Position numbers and translations under genes: made by a program. Below, one piece after another: positions 1-42,594 of a stretch of DNA of 64,000 bases (the first letter of the stretch is position 1; every line of letters starts with the position of its first letter). Source of the stretch: Fimicolochytrium jonesii (Eukaryota); the NCBI RefSeq assembly GCF_025526975.1, contig NW_026515668.1:1302001-1366000 (forward strand), given 5' to 3'. The notes beneath the pieces were generated by a model. That model saw only the letters and a program-made list of their open reading frames with translations, had not been told where the DNA came from and did no database searches.

Positions 1-194
1 CGGATCAGGGCCAAGGCGTGCGCCTGATGTCCCTGCCGGATGCACTGTTGTACTTGTCCCGAAGTGCGTCGCGGAGGCCCTCTCTGTTTTTCCAGATGGG
101 CACGATGGGCGCCAGGGGTTTGCCTGCGCGGGGTGGGCGGAGCCAGAGACGACTTGGCTACGAGCGCTAGCGCGGCGGGTGACGTTAACGCGGG

Positions 195-1274
195 TCACGC
201 ACCTTCTTTTTCATCCCCGTCTTTTTTAGCCCTGTGTTTTCTCTTCCCCCCATTTTTCTCCCCCTCAACAAACAGGGAGCCCACGTAGGTGTCCACAGCA
301 CGCCGGGCTGCGCGGGCGGTGTCGACGGGCTGCCCCATCAGGTCCCCCGCCACGATCCGCGCTGTGTCGTCGCAGTCCGTGACCAGGTAGCTGCGGCCTG
401 CGCTCCGAGAGGATGCAACGATGAGTCGGAGGGGCTCGCCGGCCAGTCTGCAGATCTCGACCAAGCTCTGGGCGGCTGTGATGAGCGCCCCCTCGGCGAC
501 GACGACGTCCGCGATGGTCGCCGATATGCTCCCCACGTCGTCGCGGAGCGCCCTCCTGTTGTCGGGGTCCAGCTGGTCGACCAACGCCCGCGCGAGGCTA
601 CGTTGTGCGCTGTGGCCAAGCAAGTTGGCGGTCCCGGGCCTAGCCTCCGCACCGGCAGCCTCCCTCATCCGCCCCATGTCGACGTCGGCCGTTTTCCGAG
701 CTTCCGCCATGTCCGCCATGCTCAATGACCTGAACCGATCAGCGGGGTCGCCCGCCCGTAGAAGCTGCAGCATTCGGTTGACCATTCTTGTCTTCTCTTG
801 CTGAAGGATGCGTTTGGCGGACTTTCCACTGCGCTTCTTGGGCGCGGCGCTCGCCCCCTCCTCCCCAGCCTCCTCCTCAGCGCGCCCCTCCTCCTCAGCG
901 CACCCCTCCTCCTCCGCGTCGCCCTCCTCCCCCCCTTCCTGCTCATGCTCGCTCCCCTCGTCGCCGACGGCAAGTAGCACGCTGGTGGCCATGTCCGCCA
1001 GCGCCTCCTCGCTCTCGACGTCAGAGTCGGAGCCATCAGCGGCCTTGTCGGCGGCCTCCGCCACCTTCGACCGGCGGGCCGGCATCTAGAAAAAGCAGTG
1101 GATATGCATGTGTCGTTAGCGCCCGCGCGCGGCAGTGCCATATATATGCCCGCTCCACACACCGCCCGCGGTAGCGCCTCCCCGCCCGCGCTATCGCATC
1201 CTTATGGCGAGTCTGTGGTGAGGCTATATATATATGCCAGCTGCACACCCCCATACCTCGCCGGCCGCTTCCAT
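195..1274 (-). CDS. Hypothetical protein (acidic N-terminal region, basic NLS-like tracts KKRSGKSAKR and GGKRKHRAKK)
   Basis: 296-aa ORF 195..1085. A probable short first exon MEAAGE (1274-1257) is joined in phase by an intron GTATGG...GCTAAC...TTTTCTAG (1256-1086). No recognisable domain. Confidence 0.55.
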
Positions 1275-1331
1275 GTTTGACCGGCTAGGGCCGGGCGCCT
1301 TTGCCGCCGCTTGGCTGCGAGTCTCCATCTT

Positions 1332-1396
1332 TGTGTGGGTGTGTGGGTGCGCGTGTGTGTGTGAGTGTGTGTGGGTGTGTGTGTGGGGGTGGGTGT
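1332..1396. repeat. Imperfect (GT)n microsatellite between divergent genes
   Basis: tgtgtgggtgtgtgggtgcgcgtgtgtgtgtgagtgtgtgtgggtgtgtgtgtggggg seen directly. Confidence 0.85.
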
Positions 1397-1701
1397 TTCT
1401 CCGCCTTCCAGAGCCGGCCGCACTTAGCTGCTTAGCCAATCCGCTGGAGGTGGCGCAGTCGCGGCGCAGCCGTGGCTTGCCGGTCACATGTCCACACTGC
1501 TGCTGTGATGATCGCCGCATCTCCAGGACCACACTGCCACACGAAACGTCAAGCGCTTGCAGCGGACGACAGCCCCCCGGCCAGCGCCTCCTTCCAGCTC
1601 AAGCCCGGCAACTCACACAGAGCACGCTCCGACAATGCTCAGCGCTGACGAGGTGAGTGGCCGCTGTGTAGCCGTGGGCGTCTCTGCCGGGTGTTGACCG
1701 C

Positions 1702-2129
1702 CTGATCCCGCAGCCCATGCTGAGCACGACCGCCGCTTGCGGGAGGTCGACCGGCATGGGGTGCGCTGTCTGGGCGTGTTTGCTATCCGCTGATCCCGCC
1801 GCCCATGCTGAGCACGACCGCCGCTTGCGGGAGGTCGACCGGCATGGGGTGCGCTGTCTGGGCGTGTTTGCTATCCGCTGATCCCGCAGCCCATGCTGAG
1901 CACGACCGCCGCTTGCGGGAGGTCGACCGGCATGGGGTGCGCTGTCTGGGCATGTTTGCTATCCGCTGATCCCGCAGCCCATGCTGAGCACGACCGCCGC
2001 TTGCGGGAGGTCGACCGGCATGGGGTGCGCTGTCTGGGCGTGCTTGCTATCCGCTGATCCCGCAGCCCATGCTGAGCACGACCGCCGCTTGCGGGAGGTC
2101 GACCGGCATGGGGTGCGCTGTCTGGGCAT
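1702..2129 (+). repeat. 88-bp tandem repeat, ~4.9 near-identical copies
   Basis: Unit ctgatcccgcagcccatgctgagcacgacc...gctatccg starts at 1702, 1790, 1878, 1966 and 2054. Confidence 0.95.
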
Positions 2130-2214
2130 TCTGCTGTGCCACGTCGATGGTCGCGATTGCGCGGGCTGAGCTGCTAACACCTTCCCCCTCCCCTTCCCCT
2201 CTACCGCGCCGCAG

Positions 2215-3513
2215 GCCACGCCACCCGTCCCACCCACCGCGGTCGAGGCTCTTCTGATGGGCATGGGCGAGAGCCGCGCCACAGCTATCTTCGGCGACAC
2301 GGTGGCCTTTTTGTATCCGCTGCTGGTAGACGCCGGCCTTGCCGCCCGGGACGCCAGCCTAGAAGACAAGGCAAAGGCGATTGGCCTTTTTTCAAAGAAG
2401 ATCAAGCAAGACAGCCCCACCCTTTGGGGTTGGTGGATCAATAGGCCAACGCGGTCCCGTCACCAGAAGAAGCGCGCCAAGCACCACATTGGGCTCCAGT
2501 CCGGCATCATTGCCGCAATCAGCGATGGCAGTCTTACCACGGCCGACTTCTCGGTGGACCCCCAGCCCTCCGCTAGCCGCCCGGCTGTTCACATCGTGGT
2601 GCCAACGCCCGCCTCGTGCGATGGCTGGGAGGGCGAGATGGCCTATGCGGGGTTTGGGAAGCGGCCGGCGAAGGCAAGGGGCCTGGATGGGCTTGAGCAA
2701 ATTGAACCCCGGGGGGGGGCCGACATCTACATCCGCGACGAGCACGGCGCCCTTGTGGCCACAATCTCGTACAATAGCGCGGGTCGTCGCGAGCATGACC
2801 TGCGGCTGGGGCTCATCGTCGAGTCCTGTGGATCCCGGCCGGCTCTGGTTCGATGGAAGGCTTCAAGGGGCACAATGCACGCCGCGGGGCTTCGTCGTGG
2901 CGTCAAGCACTCGGGATATGCCAGGGGGACGTCGCACTATTCAATGAAAGGAGGGGCTGACATGTCGGCAAAGAAGTTTCTCGTCGCCACGGAAAAGGCC
3001 TTCACCAAGCGACTGCTGCAGGAGCTCACCAAACGCAACCCCACCGCGGCGGCCTACCTGATGATGTCCATGCCAGAGGTGTACGGCCCACACTCCGATG
3101 AGTTCGCCCCGCTGTTCACCACGACCAACTACCAAGTGGTCGTTCACTCCGACCCGTCGGACGACGGCGTAGCCGGCAAGCTGAACCCGCACACAGGCCG
3201 CGCCGTATGGAAGCTGACCCCCAAGGAGGAGCTTCCGGAGGAGCTTCAGGCCCGCAAGCTATGCACGCAATGGGTGGCAGGCTATGCCGCCGCTCCGCCA
3301 ACCGTCGTCGGGGAGTGGATATTTGCGCTGCCAGAGCAAGGCTTCTACTTGGTGCTGCAGCCCAACTGCATGTGGACGTGGATGTCTGACAGGCTCCACG
3401 GAACGCCGGTGCTTGACGCGTCCGGCGGCAGTCGCCACACGGCTGTTGTGACGCTGCCCCTGGCGACGGCCGCGGCCATCCGGAAATACGGCCTCCCTGA
3501 TCAAGACGAATAG
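2215..3513 (+). CDS. TET/JBP-like 2-oxoglutarate-Fe(II) dioxygenase (main exon; 5' exon probably near 1635-1652)
   Basis: 418-aa ORF with GTMHAAGLR (resembles the GxMxxxGWR motif of fungal Tet-like proteins), HxD (HSD, 3145-3153), distal His in RLHGT (3397) and Arg in SRHTAVV (3433). A splice acceptor GCTAAC...CCGCAG ending at 2214 is in frame with the ORF; upstream donor GAG|GTGAGT at 1653. Confidence 0.7.
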   Translation, partial: ATPPVPPTAVEALLMGMGESRATAIFGDTVAFLYPLLVDAGLAARDASLEDKAKAIGLFSKKIKQDSPTLWGWWINRPTRSRHQKKRAKHHIGLQSGIIAAISDGSLTTADFSVDPQPSASRPAVHIVVPTPASCDGWEGEMAYAGFGKRPAKARGLDGLEQIEPRGGADIYIRDEHGALVATISYNSAGRREHDLRLGLIVESCGSRPALVRWKASRGTMHAAGLRRGVKHSGYARGTSHYSMKGGADMSAKKFLVATEKAFTKRLLQELTKRNPTAAAYLMMSMPEVYGPHSDEFAPLFTTTNYQVVVHSDPSDDGVAGKLNPHTGRAVWKLTPKEELPEELQARKLCTQWVAGYAAAPPTVVGEWIFALPEQGFYLVLQPNCMWTWMSDRLHGTPVLDASGGSRHTAVVTLPLATAAAIRKYGLPDQDE

Positions 3514-3820
3514 CCGCGCCACCCCCAGCAGCAGCGGCCCCCCCTCGTGCGTAGATGTGGACCTTGACTGCGTAGATTTTGTAGACCTTGCCTGCCTTGC
3601 CTGCGTAGATTTTGCAGACCTTGCCTGTGTAGAAAGGTCCCATCAATAGGCGAGTTTGGCGCGCAAGAGTCCGATGTGGCGAGGGGCTTGCTCCAGTAGC
3701 GCGGGCGAACGTGATGGACCGGACCTCGCTGCGAAGCTTCGGCGGCTGGAGGCCCGAGCTGCCCGTCCAGACCTTGCCCAGCGTGTCTCCGTCCTGCGGG
3801 CGCCACAATGACACGCACAC

Positions 3821-4360
3821 ACGTTAGCGCTGGACTCGTGACGTTAGCGCGGGCGTGGGCGCTAACGCCTGTGAGGCCGCGTTAGCGCGGGCGTGGGCGC
3901 TAACGCCTGTGAGGCCACGTTAGCGCGGGCGTGGGTGCTAACGCCTGTGGGGCCACGTTAGCACGGGCGTGGGTGCTAACGCCTGTGGGGCCACGTTAGC
4001 GCTGGCGTGGGTGCTAACGCCTGTGGGGCCACGTTAGCGCGGGCGTGGGTGCTAACGCCTGTGGGGTCACGTTAGCGTGGGCGTGGGTGCTAACGCCTGT
4101 GGGGCCACGTTAGCGCGGGCGTGGGTGCTAACGCCTGTGAGGCCACGTTAGCGCGGGCGTGGGTGCTAACGCCTGTGGGGCCACGTTAGCGCAGGCGTGG
4201 GTGCTAACGCCTGTGGGGCCACGTTAGCGCGGGCGTGGGTGCTAACGCCTGTGGGGCCACGTTAGCGCGGGCGTGGGTGCTAACGCCTGTGAGGCCACGT
4301 TAGCCCGGGCGTGGGTGCTAACGTCTGTGAGGCCACGTTAGCGCGGGCGTGGGTGCTAGC
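3821..4360 (+). repeat. 38-bp tandem array, 13 full copies plus partials, each with a 9-bp-stem hairpin
   Basis: Unit acgttagcgcgggcgtgggtgctaacgcctgtggggcc starts at 3841, 3879, 3917 ... 4297, with a partial copy at 4335. Internal inverted repeat cgttagcgc/gYgctaacg. Confidence 0.95.
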
Positions 4361-4654
4361 GCCGGCGTGGGTGCCACTCACCGTGCCCCGGGGCTCCGCG
4401 TCTGCAGGCCTCTACATGGACGTGAGCAGACAAGTTCCAGACCGCCAAGACCGAGCTCCTTCTTACAATTGCGCACAATTGCGCACACTTCCACCCTCGC
4501 ACATTCAAGGCAAACCCCCAGCCAATCTCTGAAAGCCTTCAGCACTTCGCAGGTAAGCGGGAGTCCAGGATCCTCCTCGAGAGCAGGCCCCTTGCTCGGC
4601 CCCCTTGATCTGACCACTTGCCTGCACAGCACAGCACAGCGCGGCACAGCCATC

Positions 4655-7519
4655 ATGTCATCACACCAGGCGCTCCAGGGGCACCTGTGGGGTGGCTTCT
4701 TTACGGGAGCAACCACACCACGGCGGAAGAGGAGGAAGGTTACTCCGGCTACCCCGCGGCTGCCCATAAATCTGCCAGCCGCTGTGCAGACACCTTTGCA
4801 ACCACCCCCGCGATTCGAGTTCCCACCTTCTGTCCATCGCCACTTGCCCCAAGCAATTGCAGACATGGTTAGCGAGAGCTCCGGCGATGAAGACGGGCAG
4901 CAGCAGCAGCAACAGCAGCGAGGGCTTTCGCCCGTGGACAGGGGTCTGCAGCGCCCACCGAACCTCCCCGCGCCCATCCCTTTCCGTTTTCCCAGCACAC
5001 CGGGTGGATCCCTGGTGTATGAACCCCCGCCACCACCACCAGCTCAACGACCCCGCCCGCAAACACATGCCAGCACCAAGGTTTCGCTTCACCGAATCAT
5101 CCAAAATCACAATCAAGTCCAAAGGGAGCGCCTGACAACGTTCATCGCCGATGTTCACGTCCTTGCGCGCCACACCACCTTCTTTATCAAGTACTACCTT
5201 GGTGAGTTTTTGAGGTACACTATACTGTATATTTCCCATAAAACAATGTCCTGACTGCTACATCTGCCCACCCCACCACAGCTGACCATCCTCTACACGA
5301 TTTCCCGGACATCACCGACAAGCACATCAGTGTGATGTTTGAGCTGCTCAACAATCCAGGCTACAATGGCAATCCGCTCATCGCGCAAGAGTTGCGTCCA
5401 TGGGTTCAAGACTACTGTAATGTTCACGGATTTGCCCCCATCCGCATGCGAAATTGCCAACAGACCGCAGCGTACACGGCTACGAGCATCCTCACAAACC
5501 TCAAAGTTAACGTACAAGAGCATTTCATGCAAATGTTTCTGCGCTACGTCAATGAGAGGCTTGGTTTGAAGCAAGTCGAACGGCATCTCCGGAGAGCGCA
5601 GCGGCGACACTATTATCGTCGTGTCTGTCAATTTACAAAGTACGCGACGTTTGAAGAGTACCCAACCGAAGAGGAGCTTGCACGCCTCACACGACTTGAG
5701 CAGACCGTCCTCGACGAGTTATGGGCTCTTTTTCCTCCCCAGGATGAGCCGCTTGCGTACAGCCTTGCGGTGGACGCAATGCCATATTTAGGTGAGTTAG
5801 TATATATCCGTCCCCCCCCTCCCCGCGGGTTCCGCTTTTGTCTAATCATGGTCCGCACCTGCCTCGCCTCATCACAGGTGCCTATTGTGAGCTCTCACGC
5901 CTCTATGAGCGCCGTGGAATGCGGCTGTTTTCCGCTATCCCGCTGCGCAAATCTTGAATCCAGTCATCTGTTCGGATCGACACAAAGATCCTAGGCACTC
6001 ATATCCTGGGCTTGAGCCAAAGTCGCATGGGGAAACTTACCGATGAACGCAAGCGGGAGCTGTGGGGGCAGTTTCTCAATGTGAATGTAAGTTAAGTCTG
6101 TATCCCTCTGCGCTTATTTCAATCACCTCGCTGAATGACGATTGGAGGACAAGGTCTTCAAGGATCGAAAGAAGCTTGGTCTCAAATTTGATGGGTCAAT
6201 CAGCACAAACGGGTATTCCGCTACCACCCACTTCAAGAAGCCAGGGCTCAAGTACGGCCATCGCGCTCGGAAGCGCAGCAAAGCCCAAATGCAGGAAGAA
6301 GTCAAGCAGCTGTATTTTGAGCACCACATCGCCGAACTAAGGGAGGCTCCAAACATCGTCTGCATTGATCCGGGCAAGCGTGACCTCTTGTTCTGTCGAG
6401 ACATCAAGAAGGAGCGGCCATTTCGGTGCGTTTCAGTTGATTACTACTGCCCTGCTGTCCCCGCTACCCCCCCCCCCCCCCCCCGTCTCCGCCCGCCAGC
6501 CCCCCGTCTCCACCCGCCAGCCCCCCGTCTCCACCAGCCAGCCCCCCGTCTCCACCCGCCAGCCCCCCGTCTCCGCCCGCCAGCCCCCCGTCTCCGCCAT
6601 CCCCGTTGCGGCGACATTCCGTTGCAGCGTCCTCACAATGCACCACCCCATATCAGATACACATCCAATCAACGGGCGGTCGAGACAAAGTCTCGGTACT
6701 TTCAAAGAGACATGAGAGAGCGAAAGATCAATGCCGGCATCGCTGAGATGGAATCACATATTCCATCGCACAAGAGCATGAACATCGAGGCGTTCTCAGC
6801 GTTCATCGTGGATTACGAACATGCGGGTATGATGTTCCACTTCAACTTTGATTTTCAACTTTGGTAATACATGGGCTGACATCTATATCCCAGATCCCGC
6901 CCTGGATGAGTTTTACCAGGATAAGGTTCACATAGCTCGCAGATTCAAGGCGTTCTCACTGCGGCAAAAGTCTGAGAGCAAGCTCATCAAGGACATGCGC
7001 CGCCTGTATGGAAAGCATTTTTCGGTCATCTTGGGTGATTGGAGCGACGCTGGAAAAACCATGCGCTTTCAGGAGTCATCAAAGACCAAAGGGTGAGTGA
7101 CCATCATTGTTTTTTATGTATTATAATACGCTCACTCATGGGGGGAAATCAGATTCCGCACACTCTTTGCAAGAAACAGCATTCCATGCTACTTGCTAGA
7201 TGAGTATCGAACGTCCTCCCTGTGCCCAGACTGCCACGGGCGTGTGAAGAAAAACATCCGACGCCGGCTGTCACCTCGGCCGTGGCAAGCTAGAAAGGGA
7301 AGAATGGAATACGTCCATGGATTGGTGGGTTGCCCCAACCCCGAATGTATCAACCAAGACTGGACGCCGTTTGAGATTCCTGGAAGACAACCACTACGAC
7401 TACGGATGAAAGTGCACAATCGGGACGTCCTAAGCACCAAGAATTTCCTCTCGATTGTGCGTTCGGTGGTGTTTGGCAATGGCCGCAGACCAGACGCATT
7501 CTCCCGTAACCGTAGGTAG
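4655..7519 (+). CDS. Fanzor1: Fanzor1 (eukaryotic TnpB-like RNA-guided RuvC nuclease), 7 exons, one in-frame TGA (possible pseudogene)
   Basis: Exons 4655-5201, 5282-5791, 5878-6086, 6148-6425, 6657-6826, 6894-7092 and 7153-7519 sum to 2280 nt in one frame. Motifs: FDGSISTNG, RuvC-I CIDPGKRDL (D at 6367), FRYTSNQR, ILGDWS, RuvC-II LDEYRTS (E at 7202), zinc finger CPDC...CPNPEC, RuvC-III HNRDVLSTKNF (D at 7424), N-terminal RRKRRKV NLS-like tract. TGA at 5955-5957. Confidence 0.88.
6467..6598 (+). repeat. Poly-C plus 21-bp tandem repeat (~5.7 copies) inside Fanzor intron 4
   Basis: ccccccgtctccRcccgccag repeated from 6479 to 6598. Confidence 0.9.
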
Positions 7520-7540
7520 TCTAGATTTCACCCCATCCCA

Positions 7541-7640
7541 TTTTCCGTGGGGGTTATCTGCCATCCACATCATTGTACCTCTGCCTGAGGCGTCGCCGAT
7601 GATGGCAACTTGTATTCCCAAACAACATTCCAGATCCAGC
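7541..7640 (+). ncRNA. Candidate Fanzor omegaRNA scaffold plus guide
   Basis: Immediately 3' of the Fanzor stop. Nested stems tggggg(7548-53)/ttccca(7615-20), tgccatc(7559-65)/gatggca(7601-07) and inner cctc/gagg. The position matches known Fanzor omegaRNA loci. Confidence 0.5.
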
Positions 7641-9121
7641 AAGCAGGACACTCCCCAGTTCGGGTATATTGGCAACCGCCGCCGTCAATGGGAAGGAAGT
7701 GGGTCAGAACGACGACGGCAGGACGGGTATCAGTCTCCTCACGACTTTCAGTGTCATCTTGTGAGCCATCTTGCGCTTTGTACCGTAACAGGGGAGAATA
7801 TGAGAATATTCCCACCTGGTGTACTCGACACTAGCTCGACAGTCTTTGATGGAGTCACACAGCGGTGGACCATCTCTTGACAGTGCGTCAAAATCCGTCT
7901 TGCTGGTTCTTACAGGTTGGCGAGATAACTCAACAGCGATGGAGAACCGACGCTCGAGCCTTAGAGAACTGCGTCCGCCGCCGCGCCTCACGATACAAAA
8001 ACCGAATGTCACTATAGAAATCCTGCACGGGTGTCCGTTGTGCTGGTATTCACAACGAATGACGAAGGCCCAAAGTGAATGAATCACAAATGACAGGACC
8101 GGAAGGAAAGGTCAAAATGAAATTCGTCGAAACAGGCCTTGGATTCTCTCTCGCTCAATAAGAGAAACAAAGTCTGGAATGCATCTGGCTGTATCTAGTG
8201 TCAGCAGAGATCATTCCTGTCGGGTGCGAACCGAAATCTCTTCAGAGCCTTTCTTTGATGAGCGCAGATCCTTCGACAACTTGGTAGACAACTTTGTATG
8301 TAGAATGGTTGCACCTTAGTGGTTCCGAAGTTTACTCCTGTATATTACATGGGCATTTTGTCCAAGGTGCCCCTTGCGGATAGCGGTGAGGCGGCGCTTC
8401 AACCTCTGAGTGAGCATTTGTGTGGAATTTTGTGCGCATCGGTGTACTGCCGAAAGCAGCCCGAAACATGCCCTGCACCCAGGCATCCCTCCCCACGAAA
8501 CATATACAGAGTAGGTCCCTGTGCCAGAGCGGAGTTTGAACCTTGATTGAAGGAAGCTCACATGATGAGGTCTCTCACGTTGACCGCAAGCTGGCTGACC
8601 ACGCAAAACAATTCGAAGCGCTGACCAAAACAATCCAGTGCGATCACCGCATGTGCCAAACCGACGTTCGTCCTGTCGGAAATGCGCCCACGCCTGTCGA
8701 GATACGGCGCCGTAAGCAAAAGGCCAAGCAAACAGGGCTTGCCTGTTGCTTCTGTGTTCCTGCCGCGTTCGATGATCGAATCCATCACGAGGCCCCACCG
8801 TTCACCTTCCTTCAACCACTGCGTAGTCAACTTTGCGAGTGGAGGTCCTGTTATCTCTCTGTGCATATCCTCTCTACGACATCCGGCACTTTGAAATCGA
8901 GTGTATCCTATCGTGAGGCCACCGCGCAATGGCGCATTAGGTATGTGTGTCAGTCGGGCATGTACTCGGAACTTTCGTCGGTGTCTTGGACTGTGGGAAA
9001 TTTACTTGGGAAAACCGGGCTCATAGATTTGTTGAAACCCTCAGTGGTATTCTCCTCGGACCCAACACCTCATATCATAGAAGCCACGAAACGGCGCAGT
9101 TTTGTAATATCTTCCGCAGCT

Positions 9122-12490: not shown

Positions 12491-13891
12491 ATGAAAGTTA
12501 GTATCACACCCGCAACACCACAAGGAGCAGGAGCGAACGGATGGATGGACGACGGTCGAGGGGCGGCGTGCGTGCGCTGGCAATGGATGGATGCATGAGG
12601 GAGTGGCTGATGGATGGAAGTCGAATTGGTGCATGGAATGTGAATGTGGACAATGGCACGGAAAACCTACGACCGGCGCAACAACGAGGACTACCGAATG
12701 ACGGCAGAGCAAGGGACGTGACGACGTCGGCTATGGAGTGGGAGGCTGTAGCTTACCATGCAGATTGCATTTATGCTCAATTTGTGCAAACCGGCTGGGA
12801 CGTCGAATTGCATTGCCATAACGACGAGTGGGAGGACAGAGCCAGCTAGGTGGACGGAAGAAGGAGGGAGGGCTATGCCGAAACCGTGAACGCCGAGGGG
12901 ATACTATTGACCGTCGAGCGGAGACTGATCGTTTCAAATTCTCTTTGTTACCAATTTACAGTTGAACATTGCTTACCCCGCCCTGGGCACCCAGAAGACC
13001 ATCGAGGTCGACGATGAGCGCAAGTAGTGAGTATTCCTGTCGAATTACGCTCAAAGAGGATATTGGGAATCTGGAGCTGGGTGGTGGGAAAGTGTCGAGA
13101 AGGCATGTCGATCTGACGATTCGCCTTGTCCTTCGCTCAGCCGTATCTTCTACGAGAAGCGCATGTCGCAGGAGGTTAAGGGAGATGCCCTCGGTGACGA
13201 ATTCAAGGGTTACATCTTCAAGATTACCGGTGGAAACGACAAGCAGGGTTTCCCCATGAAGCAGGGTGTTCTTGAGGCCCGCCGTGTCCGTCTCCTTTTG
13301 TCTGCCGGCCACTCTTGCTACCGCCCCCGCCGTACCGGTGAGCGCAAGAGGAAGTCCGTCCGTGGATGCATTGTTGGCTCCGACATCGCCGCCCTTGCTT
13401 TGGTTGTCGTCAAGCAAGGTGACGCCGACATCCCTGGCTTGACCGACACTCAGGTGCCCAAGCGCCTTGGACCCAAGAGGGCCAGCAACATCCGCAAGAT
13501 GTTCAACCTCACCAAGGATGACGATGTCCGCAAGTACGTCATTCGCCGTGAGATCCCCGGCAAGGGCGACAAGAAGGGCTACACCAAGGCCCCCAAGATC
13601 CAAAGGCTGGTCACCCCCCGTACCATCCAGCGCAAGCGTCACCTGAAGGCCTTGAAGGTTCGCCAATCCGCGAAGGTTGCCGAGGTGAGTCAATGAAGGC
13701 CATAGAATGCCGTTGGATCTCTTGTTCAACTTGCGATAAACGACAGATGAGACTAAACAACGGTTTTTTAGGATGCCGCCGAATACGCGAAGATTCTCGC
13801 TCAACGTATCAAGGAGCGCAACACCAAGCGTCAAGAGCTCCACCAGAAGCGTCGTCTCTCCTCCACCCGCAAATCCACCACCCAGGCATAG
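12491..13891 (+). CDS. RPS6: 40S ribosomal protein S6 (eS6), 4 exons
   Basis: Exons 12491-12496 (MK), 12962-13026 (LNIAYP...DDERK), 13141-13684 ([10 protein letters not shown]...[14 protein letters not shown]...KRLGPKRAS) and 13772-13891 (…KRRLSS…). Confidence 0.97.
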
Positions 13892-18600: not shown

Positions 18601-21059
18601 AACCCCGTTTTAAGAACACATATCAAGGAATATGAGATTGATTGCGCAGTCACTTACTGCTCGTGGAACTCCGTAAACCTTTACGTTTGCAGAGTCTCCT
18701 TGGTCGTCTTGTGTTTCCTCGATGCCCGTTAACTATATCAAGTCTCTTTGAGTAAACAACACCGACGTAAATCAACAAACTCGATCACTCGATTACTCAC
18801 ATCTGTCGGAAGTGGATTCGCATTCAAAGCCTCCATTAGACGCTTCTCGCCCGCTGCTTCCACCACGTCATGTGCATCCACTTCGTTTGCGACCTCAAGC
18901 ACACCCTTGAACACAGGCTTCAACGGAATGTCAAACTCAACAGCGATCTCATCCGCCTCTGGCCCAATTTCTTCTGCGCTCCAGAGGCCACCTTCCGCAT
19001 TCCGACTAGGTGCAGCAAATGCGTTCTTGCCGCTTCGCGTCTTCCCGCTGAGCTTTGCAAGGACATCGTTGTACCAGTTGATGTTGTCCTCTGCTTCCGA
19101 AAGACGGAAGCGGTAGTCGGAGATGGTGCGCACGTAACTTTGAATGATGGGATGCGCGGCAACCAGGCTTCGATACGCTGCCTGAGTGGTGTGTCTGCTT
19201 CCTGGGATTGGCGATGATCCGCTGCTTGTGGATTCCACTTTGTCGGCGTTTTCTTTAGGAGGATCGCATACCTCCTGCGCCGTGTTGGCCGGTGCTCTAT
19301 CCTCAAGAACCCGTCGAAGTTTCGCCACCCCTGTATCGTCATCGTGATCTCCTTTACGCTTCTTGCTCGGAGCCAGGCTCTGGGTATAAGCCACGACGAC
19401 TTCATCTCTTCGGACGATGGCATCCGCCAACTCTTTCCCCAGCTCTCGACACCGGTCCTGCAGTCGAAAACATCGGAATTTCAACCGATCGTTCTCGAAT
19501 CGCATAGCGTCCCTTTCACGTCGCATGCCTTCGAGCTCTTCTTCTGTTTCACGGTTTTTTTGAATCCGCATCTGCGCCTCCCGATCGCGAATGCCGCCTG
19601 GCATGGAAATTTGTTGATTCTGCTGGTACCCAGCTGCTGCGAGGTCGCCAAAAGTGTCTGATCTTGCCATTTCGTTCCAAGTGGCTCCACCAGCCCGCAA
19701 TTGCGCCACTGTTGCTCGCAAGATTCGAATTTCTCTTTCCATAGCAACAAAGTTCGCTCCATTCGCGCCCCACTCTTGGTTGATGACCACTTTGTTCTTG
19801 ATGTTTCGAGCCCGGTTCGCATAATTTAGGGTATTGAGGGTCTCGGCATAATTGCTGCTACTCGGACTGACGCAGGCAAGCATAAGGGTCTGGCTGTTCC
19901 CACCAAGGCTGTCTTGCAGCATCCTGGTGAGTTTCGAGTCCCGGTATGGGACATGCTGATTGGCGGACCTTCGTGTGTCGTCGCCTAATGCTGAGATAAC
20001 GTTTCCAAGGGCGAGTAGACCTTGATTGATGGAGATTCCCTCCTTTTTTCGATCGCCTTCCGCGTTCGTGCGTTTCAATCGCTCGGACCCAGCCAAGTCG
20101 ACAAAGTGAAATTTCGAAACAAGGCTCTGTATTTCAGAGCTGACGTTCTCCATGGAGGTCGCGACCACACCTCCAGATAGTTCTCCGGTTTCGGGTATTG
20201 CATCTGCAGCGGAATCTGTTTCTGGAATTTGATCTACTTTTCGCTGCTGCCTCAGGATGACGCTGAAAATGGCATGACTTCTCGAGGACGAAGCATTCAT
20301 GTCGGTCGATCCGGTACTTCGGCACAGAGAGCCTTTCGCGAGCGCTTCCAGTAAGCCTTCAGGTGAGTTCACTGGGACCTCGCGGACCCCATACCACACA
20401 ATCCTGCCGCTGGAATCTTCACGAATGGATAATCCCGAATTGCCATCCTTGCTCCGCGGATTGAGGAGATCAACGAGCTCTTCGTTGTATAGTTCGAGAA
20501 ATGATACCAGCACCTCGTACTGAAATCCATCCCCCAACCTCGCCTGTTCTGCGGCTAATTTGTCGAAGAGGAAATAAATCGCTCTTGGAACTATGCCTTG
20601 GTCGAAGTTCTCACCGGCTGTCTCCATCCCGGTTCCCATGGAGTATGTTTTTCCAGATCCCGTCTTTTTGCATGATAGACATAAGAAGAAATAGATCAGC
20701 TGGGTTCAGCCACGTTGGGTGCGAGATCTTGTCCTCACCTGACCATACGCGAGGACCGTGGCATTGAATCCTTCCAAAAATCGCTCGACCAGCGGCTGAA
20801 CACATTCCCCATACACCTGCTCCTGCCTGCTCTCGGTATCAAACACATGGTCGAATGTGAAGGATTTCGCCTGTGCTGAGCTCGAGGAAGCGGTTGTGAG
20901 GCCCAAGGACTCTGCGACGCTGACGCTGTTGCCGGGCGCGATGGACACCTGAGGGACACCTGGCCCGTAGAAGGAGACGCATTGCTGTGCGCTTGCCAGT
21001 ACTTCCTTTGCGCTCAGCGGGCGGACTCTGAGAGCGACTTTCACGGACGTGGAGGCCAT
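15677..21059 (-). CDS. Kinesin motor protein, kinesin-4 (KIF4/KIF21)-like, multi-exon
   Basis: MASTSVKVALRVRPL, YGQ|TGSGKT split by an intron, SSRSHAIF, DLAGSER, HVPYRDSKLTRMLQDSLGGNS. Long coiled-coil exons follow (ORFs 17914..18591 and 15677..17920). Confidence 0.92.
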
Positions 21060-27597: not shown

Positions 27598-27953
27598 GGT
27601 GATTGAATGTAGTGCGTTGGAAAATGGAAGGAATCAGCAGAATGGCAACGCAGGTGAAGGTGAAATTTGCGAGCGTGAGAAGCTCAGCACGGACAAAACG
27701 TTCCGACATTTTTGCATTCCTCATTGTCGTGTCCGATTGAGCAAAGCAGTGATGCCTTCAAAAGAAAACGGCGGTGCTGTCGATGATTTTACAATTAGCC
27801 CCGTCAATAATGTGTCCAATGGGCGCAGAGTTACTCACGTAAGGCGCGTCCTTCCGGTGTTGCCTCCCCACTTGCGCTTGCACTCGCCTCCCCACTTGCC
27901 CCAGCGCTTGCACTCCCCCTATTCCGTCCTCCTTTCTGCCTCTTGCCCGTCGA

Positions 27954-30900
27954 CTACCCTTTCGATATCACTGAACCGCATTCACTTCCACTGTCTTGGG
28001 TCCTTTCCTGAGCATCGAGGAATTCCCTCAACTGCCGACGTCGAATCACTTCGCCGCACTTGCTTTCCAGGTCAACCTCCTCCTCCTGGTCCCAAGCATG
28101 TTCCTTCCAAATCAGAGGGGTTTTGAAGCAATATCGATTGAGCAGGTACTCGTCCGTTATACAGTGCCACACATGTGGCATGAGACTTTGAATTTTGGTC
28201 CTTCGACGTCGAACTGGCATCTCCTTGATGGTGCATGCATCGGTACATGCGTGCTGAACATTAACAACCGTGATACCCCCATGCAATCTGATGAGACTTG
28301 TGCGTGCTGTCCCTCGGATTACCGGACATTGGAGGATGACTGTGTTGCAGAGTACCTCATATTGTTGGACAATAGCAAAGCACCGGTTATCGACAGTCGT
28401 TGCACAGCGAAAGAATATCAAGAAGCGCACGACACCGCCATCTGGTAGCATTGCAAAGTCGCCTAATGAACATCAAGAGGAAGCCGTGACCAGTTGTTGA
28501 TACCGGTGTATTGTTGGGTCCTCGTAGTGCAGGGGACTCAATGCGTCAGGGATCTCGAACACCGGAGATGAAAGCTCAGAGAATCGCAAACTCTGCTCCT
28601 GTATTCGAATTCGCAGGGCGACTCCACTGGTTGGAAGATTCTCATCTCGATAGCCCATAAGCCGACAAACTTCGCGATTCTCCGCAAACAGCCATCGGAG
28701 GTCAGATCCAGCGGAAGTCCACTCTCTCCCTTTTCCAGCCCTCCAGCCAATATCCACCAGAGAAGACATGCCGGAGTGTTTGATACCGTGCAAACCTTTG
28801 TCCAATGTCCTTTGATGGCGATTGCCGATTGCTGTGCACGGAATGGCCCCGCATGATAGGATTGTATGCTTCAAATTTTTCGCTGGCGTACAAACGTGCG
28901 GGACCAAACCGTCGTATGCTTTCGGGGAAGTGTAAGATGATGTGGAACTTGTGCTTGTTGAAGAAATCGTCGTCGACGTCGCACATCCTAGCAATAGTGA
29001 CATGTATGCCCTGAGTGAGTGCGCGAAGGTATGTCTCCATATCCTCGATGCTTTCCGTGTAAATCATCGCCGTCAGCTCACTCATTGCCATCCATGCGTT
29101 GGTCCATTCGGGTGAGAGAAGATTTCGGCAAAGGAACGGCGCAACTTGGGCAATCGCGCGGAAATCCTTCCCAATCAGGCTGTGTGAGTACTGGATTAAC
29201 TGCTTGCTTTTGAATGTGGTATCAAGCCCCCTTGTAGCCATCGAGTCAAGCCGCGCTGCGAAAACTATCTTCTCTGGCCGCCTCGCCATGTGTTTGATGG
29301 TTGCCCGCCATAGCCACTTGACTGTTCCTAGGAGGATTGTATGGAGAGCTTCCACCGGACTATCCTCGTGCCCGTCGAAACCCACAAGATCAAACAACGG
29401 ATTCAGACCATACTGAGCGATATGGAGGGCTGCGTGCCTGTCGATGTCACTCAGCGGCAATTTTTGTGAGCGCATGGAGGTCAGCTTGGTAAGCAGGTTG
29501 GTGGCGTATGTGGACTTGACACCGTTCTCTCTCTGGTTGCGTTGTAGGGCGGTTACCCCCTGCGTCTTTGCGATGACGACCTGCTTGTCGAGTGTATCCT
29601 TTGTCTCCCTCCAACTCCTCGCCATACTAAGCTGGAGCAGTTGATGGAGGTCTCGGCATGTTTTGACATTTCCGCTGACCTTGCAGAATCAACAGAAGTG
29701 CGTACCATTCTTGATATCAATCATGGACGTGAGCTCGTTATGCATGGGGTTGTCACCTTCAACACAAAACGTGTAGCCAATAACGACAACTTCCTCCATA
29801 AGACGTGCATCGTAAGCCAGAACGCCTCGCTCAAGGCCGTTGCGGATATCATTGACAACGAGTTTTCCAATGTCCAACGGTGATGCGCAGTTGCTTGTGG
29901 CGATAAAATGTGTATTGTAGTCCATCTGGCAATATTTGAAAGGTAAGCCCGCTAGTTGGAAGCACCAGTTGTAATGGCAATTCCATTTTTTTGACCGATT
30001 GCCCGAGACGTCATCACAGTACAAGATGAGCGGGGTGATTATTACTCGCCTGTTCCCAATCACAATCTTCAGGTGATGTGGAGACAAGATGGAGGAGCGT
30101 TCATCATCTTCGTAGATCCTGCTTTTGTTCCGCCGTGAACTCTTGAATCCCACAAGCTCATGACCACCCAATTTCCGCTCTTCAAATTCAGGTGTGAGTT
30201 GCGAGGTCAGAGTCGCCACAGGTCTGAGTACTTCGATGTCAGTGATCCAATAACCGCTGACGTCAAGCCGCATCTTCTGTCCCTCCAACCACAGCTGCCC
30301 TTTGCGGGTGAAAAATCGCTTGATGTGAAGGAGGGTTCCATCTGCAGTTGCAAAGTCGCCAATGAAGTAGCTATTGCCGCCGTGCCGGACCATGGGCAAG
30401 CGCAGACAGGGGTCGGTTTTCCACCTCTGGCTGTGACACAGCTCTGATATGCCCGATTCCACATCTTCACTGAACGTGCGCAGGTGCCGCATCACTACTG
30501 GATTGGCAACATCTTGCATGACGGCACTGGTCACGCTGTTGATATGCACGCTGTCGCCTTCCTGTGTTGTCCCAACACGGCTCTGGCATCCGACCTTCAG
30601 CATTACGGCGTCGAGTTCTTTTTCCACCTGTCGGGATGGGAATGGGGTTAAGCCAATTCATCACGAGAATTCCAGCTGAACGATCGGGTCAGTGGTCGTG
30701 GTTACCTTTGCAATGCTCGGAAGTACAACGCCGAACTCCCGCGCCCACCACCATATTAGCTGCAGAAGCCCTTCCGAGATTGGATGTCTCGGGATGTTCA
30801 TTAAAAGGGCGCATAATGCTACCTGTAGGGGGTTAGACATTGTGAGCAACGGGCAATGCTACGACGGAGGGGGAGCAGAGTCGATGGTAAGGAGCTGGTC

Positions 30901-31430
30901 ACCCACCTTCTTGCTGCTAAAGGGATAATAATCTTCATTGCTGCCAAAATCGAGGTACGTTTCTGCGGCGCCATCCTCCCCTTGTTGGTTGATATCGATA
31001 TCTGAACCATAATCCGACGGGCATTCGTCATTGCCTGATGTGTCACTGTCGCTGATGGGTTCAACATAATCTCCATAACGTTCATTTTTGATTGCCTCAT
31101 CCTCATGACGGCGCATCTGTTCTCCCTCACTGACAATTTCATGATGATTGGCCAGCTCGGTTGCGTAGAACGGGTCAACATCCATGGCATTGCTGCTGCA
31201 GTCGTCTGTGAACATATCCTCAATTTTGGATGGGGGTCTGTGGGTGGCAACCTGCATTTGTGCGATAGCAAGTTCATGTTGAGTCGATGCAAGGTGGCGG
31301 CAGGTGTGGAACGGTCAATCGCTAACGCAGACGTTACAGGCCGTGCACAGCACTTTCTTGTGTCCAAACGGCTTCAGCAATATCCGGAACAAGTACCCAA
31401 CTGGAGCAGAATGGTTATCCCTGTGTGTAT
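27954..31430 (-). pseudogene. CMC/EnSpm-like transposase pseudogene with N-terminal C2H2-like zinc finger
   Basis: CTAC...HLASTQH; YPFSSKK; LILYCDDVSGNRSKKWNCH; GDNPMHNELTS; FC*FC; PVEALHTILLGTVK; KFHIILHFPESIRRFGPARLYASEKFEAYN; VNVQHAC. In-frame TGAs at 31315-17, 29689-91 and 28473-75, and a frameshift near 28745. Confidence 0.85.
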
Positions 31431-31470
31431 CTACCCTTGTGTTCGCAGCGGTGTAGAAAAAAACAAGGTC

Positions 31471-31610
31471 TTGTTGGATCTTGTTGGATTTTGTTGGATT
31501 TTGTTGGAATGGCGCATTTTCCCACGCCCACGCTTTGCCCATGGACTTTGTGACGAAGGGCACATTTTCCCACGCCCACGCTTTGCCCACGGACTTTGTG
31601 ACGAAGGCCG
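31471..31610. repeat. 10-bp x4 (ttgttggatN) plus 48-bp x2 direct repeats upstream of the transposase
   Basis: ttgttggatc ttgttggatt ttgttggatt ttgttggaat; cattttcccacgcccacgctttgcccaYggactttgtgacgaagg at 31515 and 31563. Confidence 0.9.
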
Positions 31611-39527: not shown

Positions 39528-40595
39528 TTACCAGTTGCACTTGAGGCTGTTGCACTCGGGACCCTTGGCGTTGGCCTTGTCCATGATGGACTTGCAGCGA
39601 GCGGACATACCCTCCTTGCTCACGCACGCGTTGAAGTCAGCCCACAGCTGCTGCTGCTGGGCCCAGCACTTGGGCTGCACATCCTGGCACCTGGGGGTGC
39701 CTCCGGGAGCCGGAGCCGGAGCAGCCGTTGGCTTGGGGACGGGAACGGGAGTGGGCTTGGTTGGAGGCACAGGGACCGCGGTGGGCTGGGTTGGGGGTTT
39801 GGCAGTGGGCTTGGGAGGGGGCACGGGGACAGCGGTGGGCTTGGTGGGAGGGGCGGGTGCAGAGCCGGACGCCTTGGCGATAGCGGGGCCAAAGGTGGGG
39901 TAGGAGTTGAATGGAGCGTAGACGTTGAAAAGGACTCCTGGGCTTTGGTAGGTGATAGCGCCCGGGAAGTCCACCTTGGGGGAGAAGTTGGCGTTTCCAG
40001 AGCCAGTGACGGTCAGCTCGGCGCAGTAGACGTACAGCTGGAGGCCGCGAGCGGGGTTCTGGGTAAAGAGGGTATCGGCCTCGTGGAGGGCGCCGATTTC
40101 GGCACGAAGGAGGTACTTGCCGCTGGGGAGGTTGGAGGGGAGAGTAACATCGAGAAGACCCTTGGTTTCGATGAGCCTCGATGTGCACCATTTGCCGTTG
40201 GGGTAGCCTTCCTCCTGGATCTTGAACCAGTCGGCGCCAGTAGGAACGCCGCCGTTCGCTGGCTGGGCTGCAAGGTAGATGTTGCAGGCACCCCAGTGGG
40301 AAGCAGCGATGATGTCGTCACCGGGGCGGTCGTGGCCGAAAATGAGACCAAGCTTGGAGCCGGCAGTGATCGGGCATCGCTGGGCGGCAGGCTGGGTGGG
40401 AGCGAAACCGCAGATCATGTTCTCGGATGTGAGATCCTTGATGGGGTAGTTCCTCTGACCGGTTGTCCACTGCGATGTGTGCCGCACGCAATCGCCATTT
40501 GCTCCTCCAGGCAACACAATGTGGTCGAGGTAGGTGTGGGCGAAGACTGACTGGGCGGCAGCCAGGAGCGATGCGGCGATAATTGCGACCTTCAT
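39528..40595 (-). CDS. AA9 lytic polysaccharide monooxygenase with P/T/K linker and C-terminal Cys-rich module
   Basis: Signal peptide followed by His1 (FA|HTY), DDIIAASHWG, WFKIQE, YLLRAEIGALH, QLYVYCA, FPGA. Confidence 0.92.
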   Translation of the reverse strand: MKVAIIAASLLAAAQSVFAHTYLDHIVLPGGANGDCVRHTSQWTTGQRNYPIKDLTSENMICGFAPTQPAAQRCPITAGSKLGLIFGHDRPGDDIIAASHWGACNIYLAAQPANGGVPTGADWFKIQEEGYPNGKWCTSRLIETKGLLDVTLPSNLPSGKYLLRAEIGALHEADTLFTQNPARGLQLYVYCAELTVTGSGNANFSPKVDFPGAITYQSPGVLFNVYAPFNSYPTFGPAIAKASGSAPAPPTKPTAVPVPPPKPTAKPPTQPTAVPVPPTKPTPVPVPKPTAAPAPAPGGTPRCQDVQPKCWAQQQQLWADFNACVSKEGMSARCKSIMDKANAKGPECNSLKCNW

Positions 40596-42594
40596 GGTGA
40601 TGATATTTCGTTGACGAGAAGGGAAGGGAAGGATTGTGTGGTGTAGAGAACAAGAGAGGGAACTGGCATCCCTTCCCAGCTTTTATAGGGTTCCAGGATG
40701 GCGCCGGAGAAAACGTTTCCGGTCAAGACGTCGATGCACGTAGGAAGAAGTCCCGACGCGTTCAGCGAAAACAATCATTTTGGGGTCCGTAGGCATGAAT
40801 CTGAGGTTTGCGCTATTTGTGCTGTTGGTTTCTGACGGCCAGTTTGCTGGCTACTTTGCACGGTCGAAGGTATCCCGCCCGGAACCTTCGTACGAGGAAC
40901 AAGCCCTCGTGGCTGCGGTGACGGCCCTACGGGTGCGTGCGAAAATCGAGTCTTGGCCGAGGATACATTGACGGTCAAACTTTTCGTTGCGATGGAAGCG
41001 GGGGACCAACCGGTGGCAACAACAGGCGCAGGCATCTCCATTGGTGCGCTGTTCGTGAGTTTTCAAAAGTTTTGATGGACTGTCGTTTCAGAAATGAAAT
41101 CTGCAAAACAATCTGTAAAAAAAAGGAGAATAAAAAGCATTCAAACGCGTCGAAAACGCGGTGCCAAACGCCGGGTACATCGTCCATACCGCCGGTTTGA
41201 ATAAATTTCGCTATCTGTCTGTCAATACGCGGGAGCACCGAGCGAAGGAAGGACGAATAGAAGTGGACATGTGCGGTAAACCTTGATCGCTTGCTAGATA
41301 CAGTACGTCCTCCGCTCCCTCGTGGTAGGTGCGACCGGACGTTTCGCCAACGTATCCCTGAGGCGATGAGGGCAGATGGCCATTTGATTGTAAATCTGGA
41401 GGAGGAAGCGGCCGTACGGAGCCGGTGACAGTGTTCACTGTTCCGAAGTGCTGCACCATTGGTAGTACTACGGCCATCAAAAGTTCATCACACCAGTGGG
41501 CCACCAGCTATGATTGGAAGTCCATGTGAACGCAGAGAGACCAAGACACATTGCAATGAGCAGCGCCGGCTGAACATACCCCCCAGTAGAAGTACGAGGA
41601 ACGGGATTCACGATTCACGGGCTTCCGGACTCAGTATTGCTGATACTATGCGTATTACCTGACGGATTATTTCTTTCGGTTCAGTTCACTGGCGCGGGAC
41701 CAACATGGAGTTTTTCTTCTTTTCTTCGGGTATCATCCAGATTCCACGCAAACGAGGCACCTAGCAAACGCGTCAAAAGTATCAAGCCTGTCTGTATCAA
41801 GCCAAACCAACGGCAGCACGAACGTTCTGCCACACACGTTGGATGACCTTAAGGTTATTTAACCGAACTGGGCGGTCCATCTTGTTGGCTACCCTGCGGG
41901 ATGAGCGGGCGAGACGAGGATCGCCACGATTTAAATATGGTTCGTCTTGCTTTTCCAAAGCATTGAATTGGGCGACAGCAATGGGATTGCGGTCTTCATA
42001 TAGAGAGGATTAGGCAGTGCATTCACTCTTTCCCCTCGAAAACAGCGGCATCAAACATCGGGGATCGAGAAGTCCGGAGTACAGAGTGGAGAATAGGACG
42101 TCGCCGGGCGGTCGAAAGCCCGAGACATATCTAGAACTCCGTGTTCCTCCATACCCACAAGAGGGTGTGCACGGTGTGAGAGTCGGTCGACATTATGCAC
42201 CTCATATACTATGCACGGGTATTTTGGCATCGGCATTATGCGCGTGGTATCGAGATCCATGGGTCTAATTTTGGAAAATGAGGGCCGAGTTTTGGCCTCA
42301 AATAACGCGCGGTGTGGATGGGACGCCACTGCTGATTGATTTGAACGGGGATCCGGCGCGCATTCGGAGCTTGTGGGAAAAGCCACTCTTGAACAAAAGC
42401 CATATACCAATACCGATCTTGCGTACGTTCAGATTCAGCACGCAACGGCAGCACGGACCTGAACAACCGAACGAAGTCCTACTGTAAAGGCAGTCTAAAC
42501 TCCCAGTTTCATTATCAGCTGACGACTTGCTACACCAGTTTTCGAGCATTTTCCCACGCATTCACGCTGCACATTACCCAACGACCAACTAAAA

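What the first reader, a model, noticed from the sequence alone, without database searches (positions are those of the whole stretch)
4655..7519. Six-intron Fanzor1 invisible in the ORF track
Splicing six GT-AG introns gives one 760-codon frame with all three RuvC acidic residues (DPG, DEYRTS, NRD), a C4 zinc finger and an extended Pro-rich N-terminus with an NLS-like RRKRRKV. This is a candidate new eukaryotic RNA-guided nuclease. The best-characterised Fanzor1 (SpuFz1) is also from a chytrid.
Basis: partly seen in the sequence, partly recalled or inferred. Interest (0 to 1): 0.85.

Follow-up and report, generated by a model that had tools for sequence, protein, structure and literature searches.

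The report
Dead Fanzor1 copy beside TET-like gene
This is a six-intron gene for an RNA-guided DNA cutter (Fanzor1) in a chytrid fungus, but a stop codon halfway along breaks this copy; its family has dozens of copies, and several sit next to a gene predicted to erase DNA methylation, which suggests a jumping element that likely carries its own anti-silencing enzyme.

Summary
The six GT-AG introns are well supported: each junction scores best against a profile of outside homologues. The spliced product is a Fanzor1, 46% identical to SpuFz1, with the D-E-D triad, C4 zinc finger and NLS-like motif. But the 760-codon frame is not open. Codon 379 (5955-5957) is TGA where 17 of 18 paralogue models have Arg, so this copy is most likely a pseudogene, and the family shows strong CpG decay. 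It is one of 46 gene models found in Fimicolochytrium jonesii; 2 of the other 45 cover the whole core. The family lacks the TAM-anchoring arginine of other Fanzor1s, so its TAM probably differs. An omegaRNA-like first stem-loop follows the stop codon (tests mixed). The upstream gene is a multi-copy TET/JBP-like dioxygenase, also the direct neighbour of a Fanzor at 3 of 10 other loci. That points to a composite element, but its ends and transposase were not seen. No RNA data were available. Intron-bearing Fanzors are published, and this scan has noted others on other DNA. Verdict: a new variant of a known kind; not itself a candidate nuclease.

The parts
4655..7519 (+). Fanzor1 gene, 7 coding exons, broken by a nonsense codon
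   Evidence: 46% identity to SpuFz1 (P0056) over 604 aligned residues
5955..5957 (+). premature TGA at codon 379 (Arg in 17 and Gln in 1 of 18 paralogue models covering the site)
5202..5281 (+). intron 1 (80 nt, phase 1)
5792..5877 (+). intron 2 (86 nt, phase 1)
6087..6147 (+). intron 3 (61 nt, phase 0; unusual GAG acceptor; an alternative acceptor at 6153 scores 11.5 bits lower)
6426..6656 (+). intron 4 (231 nt, stop-free in frame, holds a 21-nt minisatellite at 6479-6595)
   Evidence: retention scores 705.3 against 724.7 bits
6827..6893 (+). intron 5 (67 nt, phase 1)
7093..7152 (+). intron 6 (60 nt, two in-frame stops if retained)
4721..4741 (+). NLS-like RRKRRKV in a 133-residue Pro/Gln-rich N-terminal extension
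   Evidence: KRRKV present in 14 of 45 paralogue models, most of the rest lack the N-terminus; function untested
6367..6369 (+). RuvC-I Asp496 (SpuFz1 D383)
7202..7204 (+). RuvC-II Glu655 (SpuFz1 E541)
7223..7348 (+). C4 zinc finger (C662, C665, C698, C703)
7424..7426 (+). RuvC-III Asp729 (SpuFz1 D606)
4553..4629 (+). predicted seventh intron in the 5' UTR (other acceptors end at 4634, 4639, 4649)
   Evidence: sequence; not tested further
7540..7568 (+). candidate omegaRNA 5' end and stem-loop 1
   Evidence: 14 of 19 identity to the published SpuFz1 omegaRNA 5' end, tied best of 127,964 positions; not recovered by a 3-sequence covariance model
7574..7668 (+). candidate stem 2 and element right end (alternative end at 7833)
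   Evidence: longest closing stem, 7 pairs; alternative hairpin; unresolved
3841..4363 (.). 38-nt tandem array, 13.8 copies, each unit with 7-bp inverted arms
1635..3513 (+). ORF-B, TET/JBP-like 2OG-Fe(II) dioxygenase (open frame 2170-3513; H-x-D at 3091-3099, His at 3397, Arg at 3433)
1702..2127 (.). 88-nt tandem array, 4.8 copies, in the 5' part of ORF-B
195..1085 (-). ORF-A, 296-aa open frame of no known family; membership of the element not shown

Best explanation
The locus is a six-intron Fanzor1 gene with a stop at codon 379, most likely a dead copy of a multi-copy chytrid transposon family whose intact members would cut DNA under omegaRNA guidance, and it probably belongs to a larger element that also carries a predicted TET/JBP-type DNA dioxygenase. 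Shown: exon structure by homology, the stop, family identity, copy number, CpG-type decay and the fold of the neighbour. Inferred steps: (1) a methylated CGA deaminated to TGA; (2) any protein from this copy would end at residue 378, without RuvC, and the message would probably be degraded; (3) intact copies such as P0038 would bind an omegaRNA made from the right end and cut TAM-flanked empty sites, favouring re-copying of the element, as proposed for TnpB and SpuFz1; (4) the TAM likely differs from CATA, because the REC-loop Arg and the N133 equivalent are changed; (5) the TET-like enzyme would oxidise 5mC on the element to counter silencing; (6) this copy may still supply an omegaRNA in trans, as ghost Spu-1 loci are proposed to do.
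For: Stop. Arg in 17 of 18 paralogue models and Gln (the opposite-strand CpG change) in 1. At 51 Arg-CGN sites, 100 of 113 departures among 45 paralogue models are Q, C, H or W; 37 of 51 sites vary, against 156 of 419 non-CpG sites (p=1.7e-6, relatedness not corrected). 5mC is confined to transposons in Spizellomyces (PMC12695648 passage). Family: exon pieces hit SpuFz1 8gkh at 1e-24 to 1e-28; P0038 hits SpuFz1 at 4.6e-149, PpFz1 at 2.4e-37 and GtFz1 at 2e-4; tree support 100 with the F. jonesii copies and with Gaertneriomyces P0055. TET-like neighbour: model pLDDT 74.9, pTM 0.78; the first 14 rows shown are CcTet, CMD1 and TET2 (best E 1.1e-7), ahead of FTO/AlkB. Linkage: 3 of 10 other ORF-B models have an accession directly next to a Fanzor model; chance about 4e-5.
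Against: The stop rests on one assembly, with no reads. 7 of 10 other ORF-B models have no Fanzor model next to them among the 42 of 46 whose accessions were seen, and most Fanzor models have no ORF-B neighbour. Accession order gives neither strand nor distance. In model P0100, ORF-B sequence lies inverted ahead of the Fanzor. No transposase, left end, TIR or TSD was found in the window. ORF-B itself hits no Pfam, PHROG or PDB sequence, and its relatives hit Tet families only below cut-off. The independent covariance model missed the omegaRNA candidate, and the 3' flank folds no better than shuffles except for the 46-nt hairpin (z -2.2).
Confidence: 0.8

Rival explanations
1. The gene is intact and the TGA is an assembly error or a heterozygous site.
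For: It is the only lesion in 760 codons; splice sites and catalytic residues are intact.
Against: It is exactly the CpG transition that dominates the family. Another copy has the complementary change at the same codon. Most paralogue models are truncated.
Confidence: 0.06
2. The stop is spliced out through a longer intron 2, as in the public gene model P0040 (718 aa), giving a shorter working enzyme.
For: P0040 is 100% identical to the spliced model apart from gaps of 39 and 2 residues, so such GT-AG sites exist.
Against: It deletes a conserved block that includes the equivalents of SpuFz1 R260 and R268, which contact nucleic acid. It scores 613.3 against 724.7 bits. This is the expected behaviour of a predictor avoiding a stop (inference).
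Confidence: 0.04
3. The TGA is recoded by read-through, editing or selenocysteine.
For: None found.
Against: Homologues have Arg (paralogues) or Leu (SpuFz1) there, not Trp or Cys. The genetic code of the host was not formally tested.
Confidence: 0.02
4. The TET-like gene and the two arrays form a separate transposon that has repeatedly landed next to, or recombined with, simple SPu-1-like Fanzor elements.
For: Most copies of each gene have no known partner. The inverted arrangement in P0100. GC steps from about 65% (1-5000) to about 52% within the Fanzor gene.
Against: Four loci with direct adjacency, counting the window. The two families diverge similarly (about 85-91% identity). Model P0006 shares the window's sequence from the end of the 38-nt array into the Fanzor gene.
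Confidence: 0.35
5. The whole family, not only this copy, is impaired as a nuclease because it lost the REC-loop arginine, and it persists passively or as an RNA-guided binder.
For: Arg or Lys at this column in 13 of 13 outside homologues covering it (12 Arg), against Gly in 15 of 16 paralogue models and in the window. R85A abolishes GtFz1 cleavage (PMC11423790 section 6).
Against: The triad and four Cys are kept wherever covered in most models. The loop is 5 residues shorter, so contacts may be rewired. One model (P0036) has Arg.
Confidence: 0.2

Closest known systems
SpuFz1 / SPu-1 element of Spizellomyces punctatus (PDB 8GKH; PMC10432273, PMC3627910)
   Same: 46% identity over 604 residues; D383/E541/D606, Q129, Q130, R291 and Y345 equivalents kept; C4 finger; multi-copy family with many partial copies; omegaRNA-like 5' end shortly after the stop codon.
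   Different: Six coding introns against a single ORF; 133-residue N-terminal extension; R96 to Gly in a shorter loop, N133 to Ala, N385 to Gly; premature stop in this copy; no 30-33-nt inverted repeat within the window; TET-like neighbour.
Intron-containing Fanzor1s: Chlamydomonas CRe-1/2/3 and CrFNuc (PMC3627910, PMC10530073)
   Same: Spliced Fanzor1 genes (5-10 exons) inside non-autonomous elements; up to about 9.6 introns/kb is reported for Fanzors, against 2.6 per kb of CDS here.
   Different: Those are Helitron2-linked and EST-supported; no Helitron ends or RNA support were shown here.
TET/JBP-carrying fungal DNA transposons (Kojima 2025, PMC12730594); CcTet (PDB 7VPN, 7W5P)
   Same: A multi-copy TET-fold dioxygenase with HxD..H..R in repeated DNA.
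   Different: Reported from rusts, mushrooms and Pezizomycetes with DDE or HUH transposases. The main text has no mention of Fanzor or chytrids. No transposase was found here.
Red-algal PAG3 2OG-oxygenase with Fanzor-encoding elements (bioRxiv 10.1101/2025.02.11.637652, section 8)
   Same: A 2OG oxygenase gene beside tandem arrays of inverted repeats, stated to occur also with uncharacterised Fanzor-encoding elements in Bangiophyceae.
   Different: PAG3 has a ParB-like domain and is not called TET/JBP. Its relation to ORF-B was not tested.

Membership tests
Fanzor1 | RuvC D-E-D triad aligned to SpuFz1 D383/E541/D606 | tested here: met
   D496, E655, D729; P0056 has the same length (638 aa) and visible N-terminal sequence as the published SpuFz1
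Fanzor1 | Rearranged RuvC-II Glu six residues before the zinc finger | tested here: met
   E655 then C662; criterion from PMC13565253 passage
Fanzor1 | C4 zinc finger (TNB domain) | tested here: met
Fanzor1 | Groups with Fanzor1, not Fanzor2 or TnpB | tested here: met
   PDB hits of P0038 at E<0.001 are only SpuFz1, PpFz1 and GtFz1; the quick tree puts it among chytrid-type rows with SpuFz1 (no Fanzor2 or TnpB rows were included)
Fanzor1 | Open full-length reading frame (for a working enzyme) | tested here: not met
   TGA at codon 379; met by models P0038 and P0039
Fanzor1 | REC-loop Arg anchoring the TAM duplex | tested here: not met
   Gly209 in the window and in 15 of 16 paralogue models. 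Conserved in the three solved structures but not a family-defining criterion.
Fanzor1 | omegaRNA scaffold at the 3' end with a 7-bp stem-loop 1 | tested here: inconclusive
   for: (post hoc); against; no Rfam match
Fanzor1 | RNA-guided, TAM-dependent DNA cleavage | not testable with these tools
   needs an assay
SPu-1-type element | About 2.1 kb, single intronless ORF, 30-33-nt terminal inverted repeats | tested here: not met
   six introns; no inverted repeat pairing the 3' flank with 1-4655; the left end may lie outside the window
TET/JBP dioxygenase (ORF-B) | Double-stranded beta-helix fold closest to TET/JBP | tested here: met
   Foldseek top rows CcTet, CMD1, TET2, NgTET1; TM 0.50-0.57, identity 8-16%; Atlas hits with Tet-like Pfam shares of 15-16%
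TET/JBP dioxygenase (ORF-B) | H-x-D, distal His and 2OG-binding Arg | tested here: met
   H308, D310, H410, R422, nearly invariant among relatives; role of the motif recalled
TET/JBP dioxygenase (ORF-B) | Pfam Tet_JBP or 2OG-FeII_Oxy_6 at cut-off | tested here: not met
   no hit for ORF-B; 3 of 11 relatives hit below cut-off, best E 2.4e-5
TET/JBP dioxygenase (ORF-B) | Oxidises 5mC, thymine or 6mA in DNA | not testable with these tools
   needs an assay
TET+ DNA transposon | Transposase and TET gene within one pair of ends | tested here: inconclusive
   no transposase in 1-8500; the element may extend beyond base 1; no genome held

The most novel reading that the evidence does not exclude
A chytrid transposon family carries both an RNA-guided Fanzor1 with a rewired or relaxed TAM (no REC-loop arginine) and its own TET/JBP enzyme, coupling RNA-guided homing with self-demethylation in one mobile cassette; the palindromic 38-nt arrays may be the dioxygenase's landing sites or inversion points.
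Probability: 0.4. Interest if true: 0.65.

Novelty: new variant of a known kind. Interest (0 to 1): 0.4.

Why it matters
The locus is not a new tool candidate, but it flags a family that I did not find in the Fanzor surveys I searched. Its natural full-length copies (P0038, P0039) are close enough to SpuFz1 to be tested directly. Their altered TAM-reading residues would show how Fanzor1 specificity changes. If the TET-like gene travels with the nuclease, the element would extend TET-bearing transposons to chytrids and make it testable whether transposon TET enzymes counter methylation-driven decay. It also shows how automatic gene models can hide a nonsense codon by lengthening an intron.

Tried and rejected
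No genome was held, so paralogue DNA, ends, TSD and TAM could not be read. No sequencing run was listed; this is no evidence either way. Pfam gave no Fanzor family above cut-off for the pieces or for full-length paralogues (best Cas12f1-like_TNB, E 0.032); the precomputed PF26935 label came without a name. The first fold of ORF-B, from 9 near-identical rows, failed (pLDDT 33.7) and was not used. Sequence searches of ORF-B against PDB and PHROGs found nothing. P0108 and P0109 were left out of alignment A6 as repeat-driven hits, and P0106 because it covers only the N-terminal part. The VIA structural searches did not complete. The covariance model from three metagenome loci did not find the window's stem-loop at E<=10. 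The descriptor that gave one hit in 128 kb was written after I had seen the window's sequence, so it counts little. Rfam was blank. Neither ORF-A nor ORF-B matched any of 24 fetched Fanzor loci. The viral scan with ORF-B gave one 18-residue match, dismissed. ORF-A is not in the collection as an exact sequence and has only unnamed, low-recognition Atlas hits. Retention of intron 4 or 6 was rejected. The tree is the quick version; the careful search did not finish. No complex was predicted and no binding is claimed.

Full report
Observation. The frame holds a second stop, TGA at 5955-5957, codon 379, visible directly in exon 3 as PLRKS*IQSS. It precedes all three catalytic residues.

Junctions. 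I built an HMM from 44 homologues outside Fimicolochytrium and scored every frame-keeping GT/GC-AG alternative within 60 nt of each site (13, 18, 22, 37, 26 and 20 forms, including retention of introns 4 and 6). Four junctions (1, 2, 4 and 6) align without a nearby gap to the intronless SpuFz1; junctions 3 and 5 fall in less conserved stretches. Intron 3 has a weak GAG acceptor. No RNA run was listed, so this is support by homology only.

Family. Exon pieces hit SpuFz1 first in the PDB. The spliced product, read with X at the stop, is 46% identical to SpuFz1 and 55% to a Gaertneriomyces protein. It sits with them in a quick tree of 32 rows, chosen from the longer hits. The host is a chytrid: public models named Fimicolochytrium jonesii include P0040, identical to this gene apart from two gaps, and P0052, identical to the upstream ORF over its catalytic part. 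P0040 avoids the stop by skipping 39 conserved residues and loses 111 bits.

Copies and decay. Searches returned 46 F. jonesii models, 45 besides the window's own. Three consecutive accession pairs are probably halves of one locus, and the search was not exhaustive. Two of 45 (P0038, P0039) cover the whole core with the triad and four cysteines. These are protein models whose DNA I could not see. At codon 379, 17 of 18 informative models have Arg and one has Gln. At Arg-CGN sites, 100 of 113 departures are those expected from CpG deamination. In Spizellomyces 5mC is confined to transposons (PMC12695648, passages). I infer that the stop arose by deamination of a methylated CGA.

TAM-reading residues. 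SpuFz1 reads CATA with R96, Q129, Q130, N133, R291 and Y345 (PMC10432273 section 10). Four are kept. N133 is Ala (20 of 21 models) and the R96 loop is five residues shorter with Gly (15 of 16 models; P0036 has Arg), whereas 12 of 13 outside homologues have Arg and one has Lys. The equivalent Arg is essential in GtFz1 (PMC11423790 section 6). The TAM is therefore probably different, or the family is weakened.

omegaRNA. Twenty bases after the stop codon, the window matches the first 19 bases of the published SpuFz1 omegaRNA at 14 positions, a score reached by 2 of 127,964 positions. By eye, three of the mismatches keep pairing in a 7-pair stem, and the loop resembles that of PpFz1 with one extra base. 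Of 19 metagenome loci, L002, L003/L004 and L006 show the same TCC-plus-hairpin start. Against this, a covariance model from those three loci missed the window's site, and my descriptor was post hoc. The right end is unresolved (7668 or 7833), and no matching left end lies in 1-4655.

Introns are lineage-specific. SpuFz1 is a single ORF (PMC3627910 and PMC10432273 passages). Close metagenome relatives carry GT-AG introns near residues 277 (L001-L005) and 697 (L002, L007), at none of the six positions here. Intron-bearing and NLS-bearing Fanzors are published (PMC10530073 passages; CRe-1/2/3).

Upstream neighbour. Bases 1-5000 are about 65% GC against about 52% elsewhere. They hold ORF-A, an 88-nt array, ORF-B and a 38-nt array. 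ORF-B has 10 further models in the same genome. A wider search gave 11 more distant hits; 3 of them touch Tet-like Pfam families below cut-off. With 12 rows the catalytic part folded well and matched CcTet, CMD1, TET2 and NgTET1 ahead of AlkB-type enzymes, at low identity and TM 0.50-0.57. The iron and 2OG ligands are intact in the window. Three of the 10 other copies have the accession next to a Fanzor model (KAI8819505/6, KAI8816264/5, KAI8823094/5; chance about 4e-5, assuming accessions follow gene order). Seven do not, and one model shows the ORF-B region inverted before a Fanzor. I put a single composite element at about 60% and two associated elements at about 35%.

Mechanism. Shown: a broken Fanzor1 gene and an intact TET-fold gene side by side in repeated DNA. 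Inferred from known systems: intact copies would cut empty donor sites and promote restoration of the element (review PMC13565253, passages), and the dioxygenase would counter methylation. Kojima offers the latter as speculation that has not been validated (PMC12730594 abstract and discussion part 1). No transposase was seen, so movement would need one in trans or beyond the window's edge.

What is in print. Fanzor plus Fimicolochytrium: 1 paper, where Fanzor occurs only in a reference. The genus is absent from 8 of 9 listed supplements of PMC10432273 (one was unreadable and a further PDF too large) and from 2 supplements of PMC10530073. TET, JBP, transposon and Fanzor together: 2 papers. PMC10288648 has no such link (passages). 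The Bostrychia preprint mentions a 2OG oxygenase with Fanzor-encoding elements in red algae (section 8; its supplements were not seen and may bear on novelty). Fanzor, dioxygenase and 'fungal transposon': 0 papers. Subscription papers, Repbase and Yoon et al. 2023 (recalled, not read) were not searched.

Verdict. The gene is a Fanzor1 by sequence but not a working one. The family is a new variant worth a modest follow-up for its TET-like partner and altered TAM loop. Interest 0.4.

Noticed in passing
window 27950-31400 (-): Several long, interrupted frames that resemble a Plavaka/KDZ-type transposase region (resemblance recalled; no Pfam hit for three pieces), with 10-nt and 48-nt tandem repeats at 31469-31607; no terminal inverted repeats found.
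   Followed up: partly
window 184, 1115 and 3841-4363: The palindromic core of the 38-nt unit recurs singly at 184 and 1115, either side of ORF-A, and nowhere else in the window. Inversion between such sites could explain the reversed ORF-B seen in model P0100 (speculation).
   Followed up: partly
window 5-1085 (-): ORF-A may have a 79-nt intron (124-202) and a short second exon ending at base 5, about 333 aa in all; acidic low-complexity N-terminus; no family found.
   Followed up: partly
window 6479-6595: A 21-nt minisatellite inflates intron 4 to 231 nt and reads as a stop-free proline repeat, which misled at least one paralogue model (P0006).
   Followed up: partly
window 5590-5600 (residue 286): A 5-residue deletion relative to 15 of 19 informative paralogue models, shared with 4 of them.
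   Followed up: partly
L006:3191-3245: A compact omegaRNA-like structure with the same loop as SpuFz1 overlaps the last codons of that Fanzor1 gene.
   Followed up: partly
L002:2814-2896 and L003:7948-8050: omegaRNA-like flanks end in ACTA as SpuFz1 does, but no matching left inverted repeat was found upstream.
   Followed up: partly
protein P0012: An F. jonesii model joins a tyrosine-recombinase-like region (Pfam Phage_integrase, E 5.6e-4, below cut-off) to a Fanzor fragment; it may be a nested insertion or a Crypton-like link.
   Followed up: no
window 39528-40682 (+): A secreted-looking protein with a Pro-rich linker resembling an AA9 lytic polysaccharide monooxygenase (recalled, not searched).
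   Followed up: no
window 13031-13696 (+), 18738-20705 (-), 58790-59509 (+): Ordinary host genes: ribosomal protein S6e, a kinesin motor and a large-subunit ribosomal protein (the last two recognised from memory).
   Followed up: no
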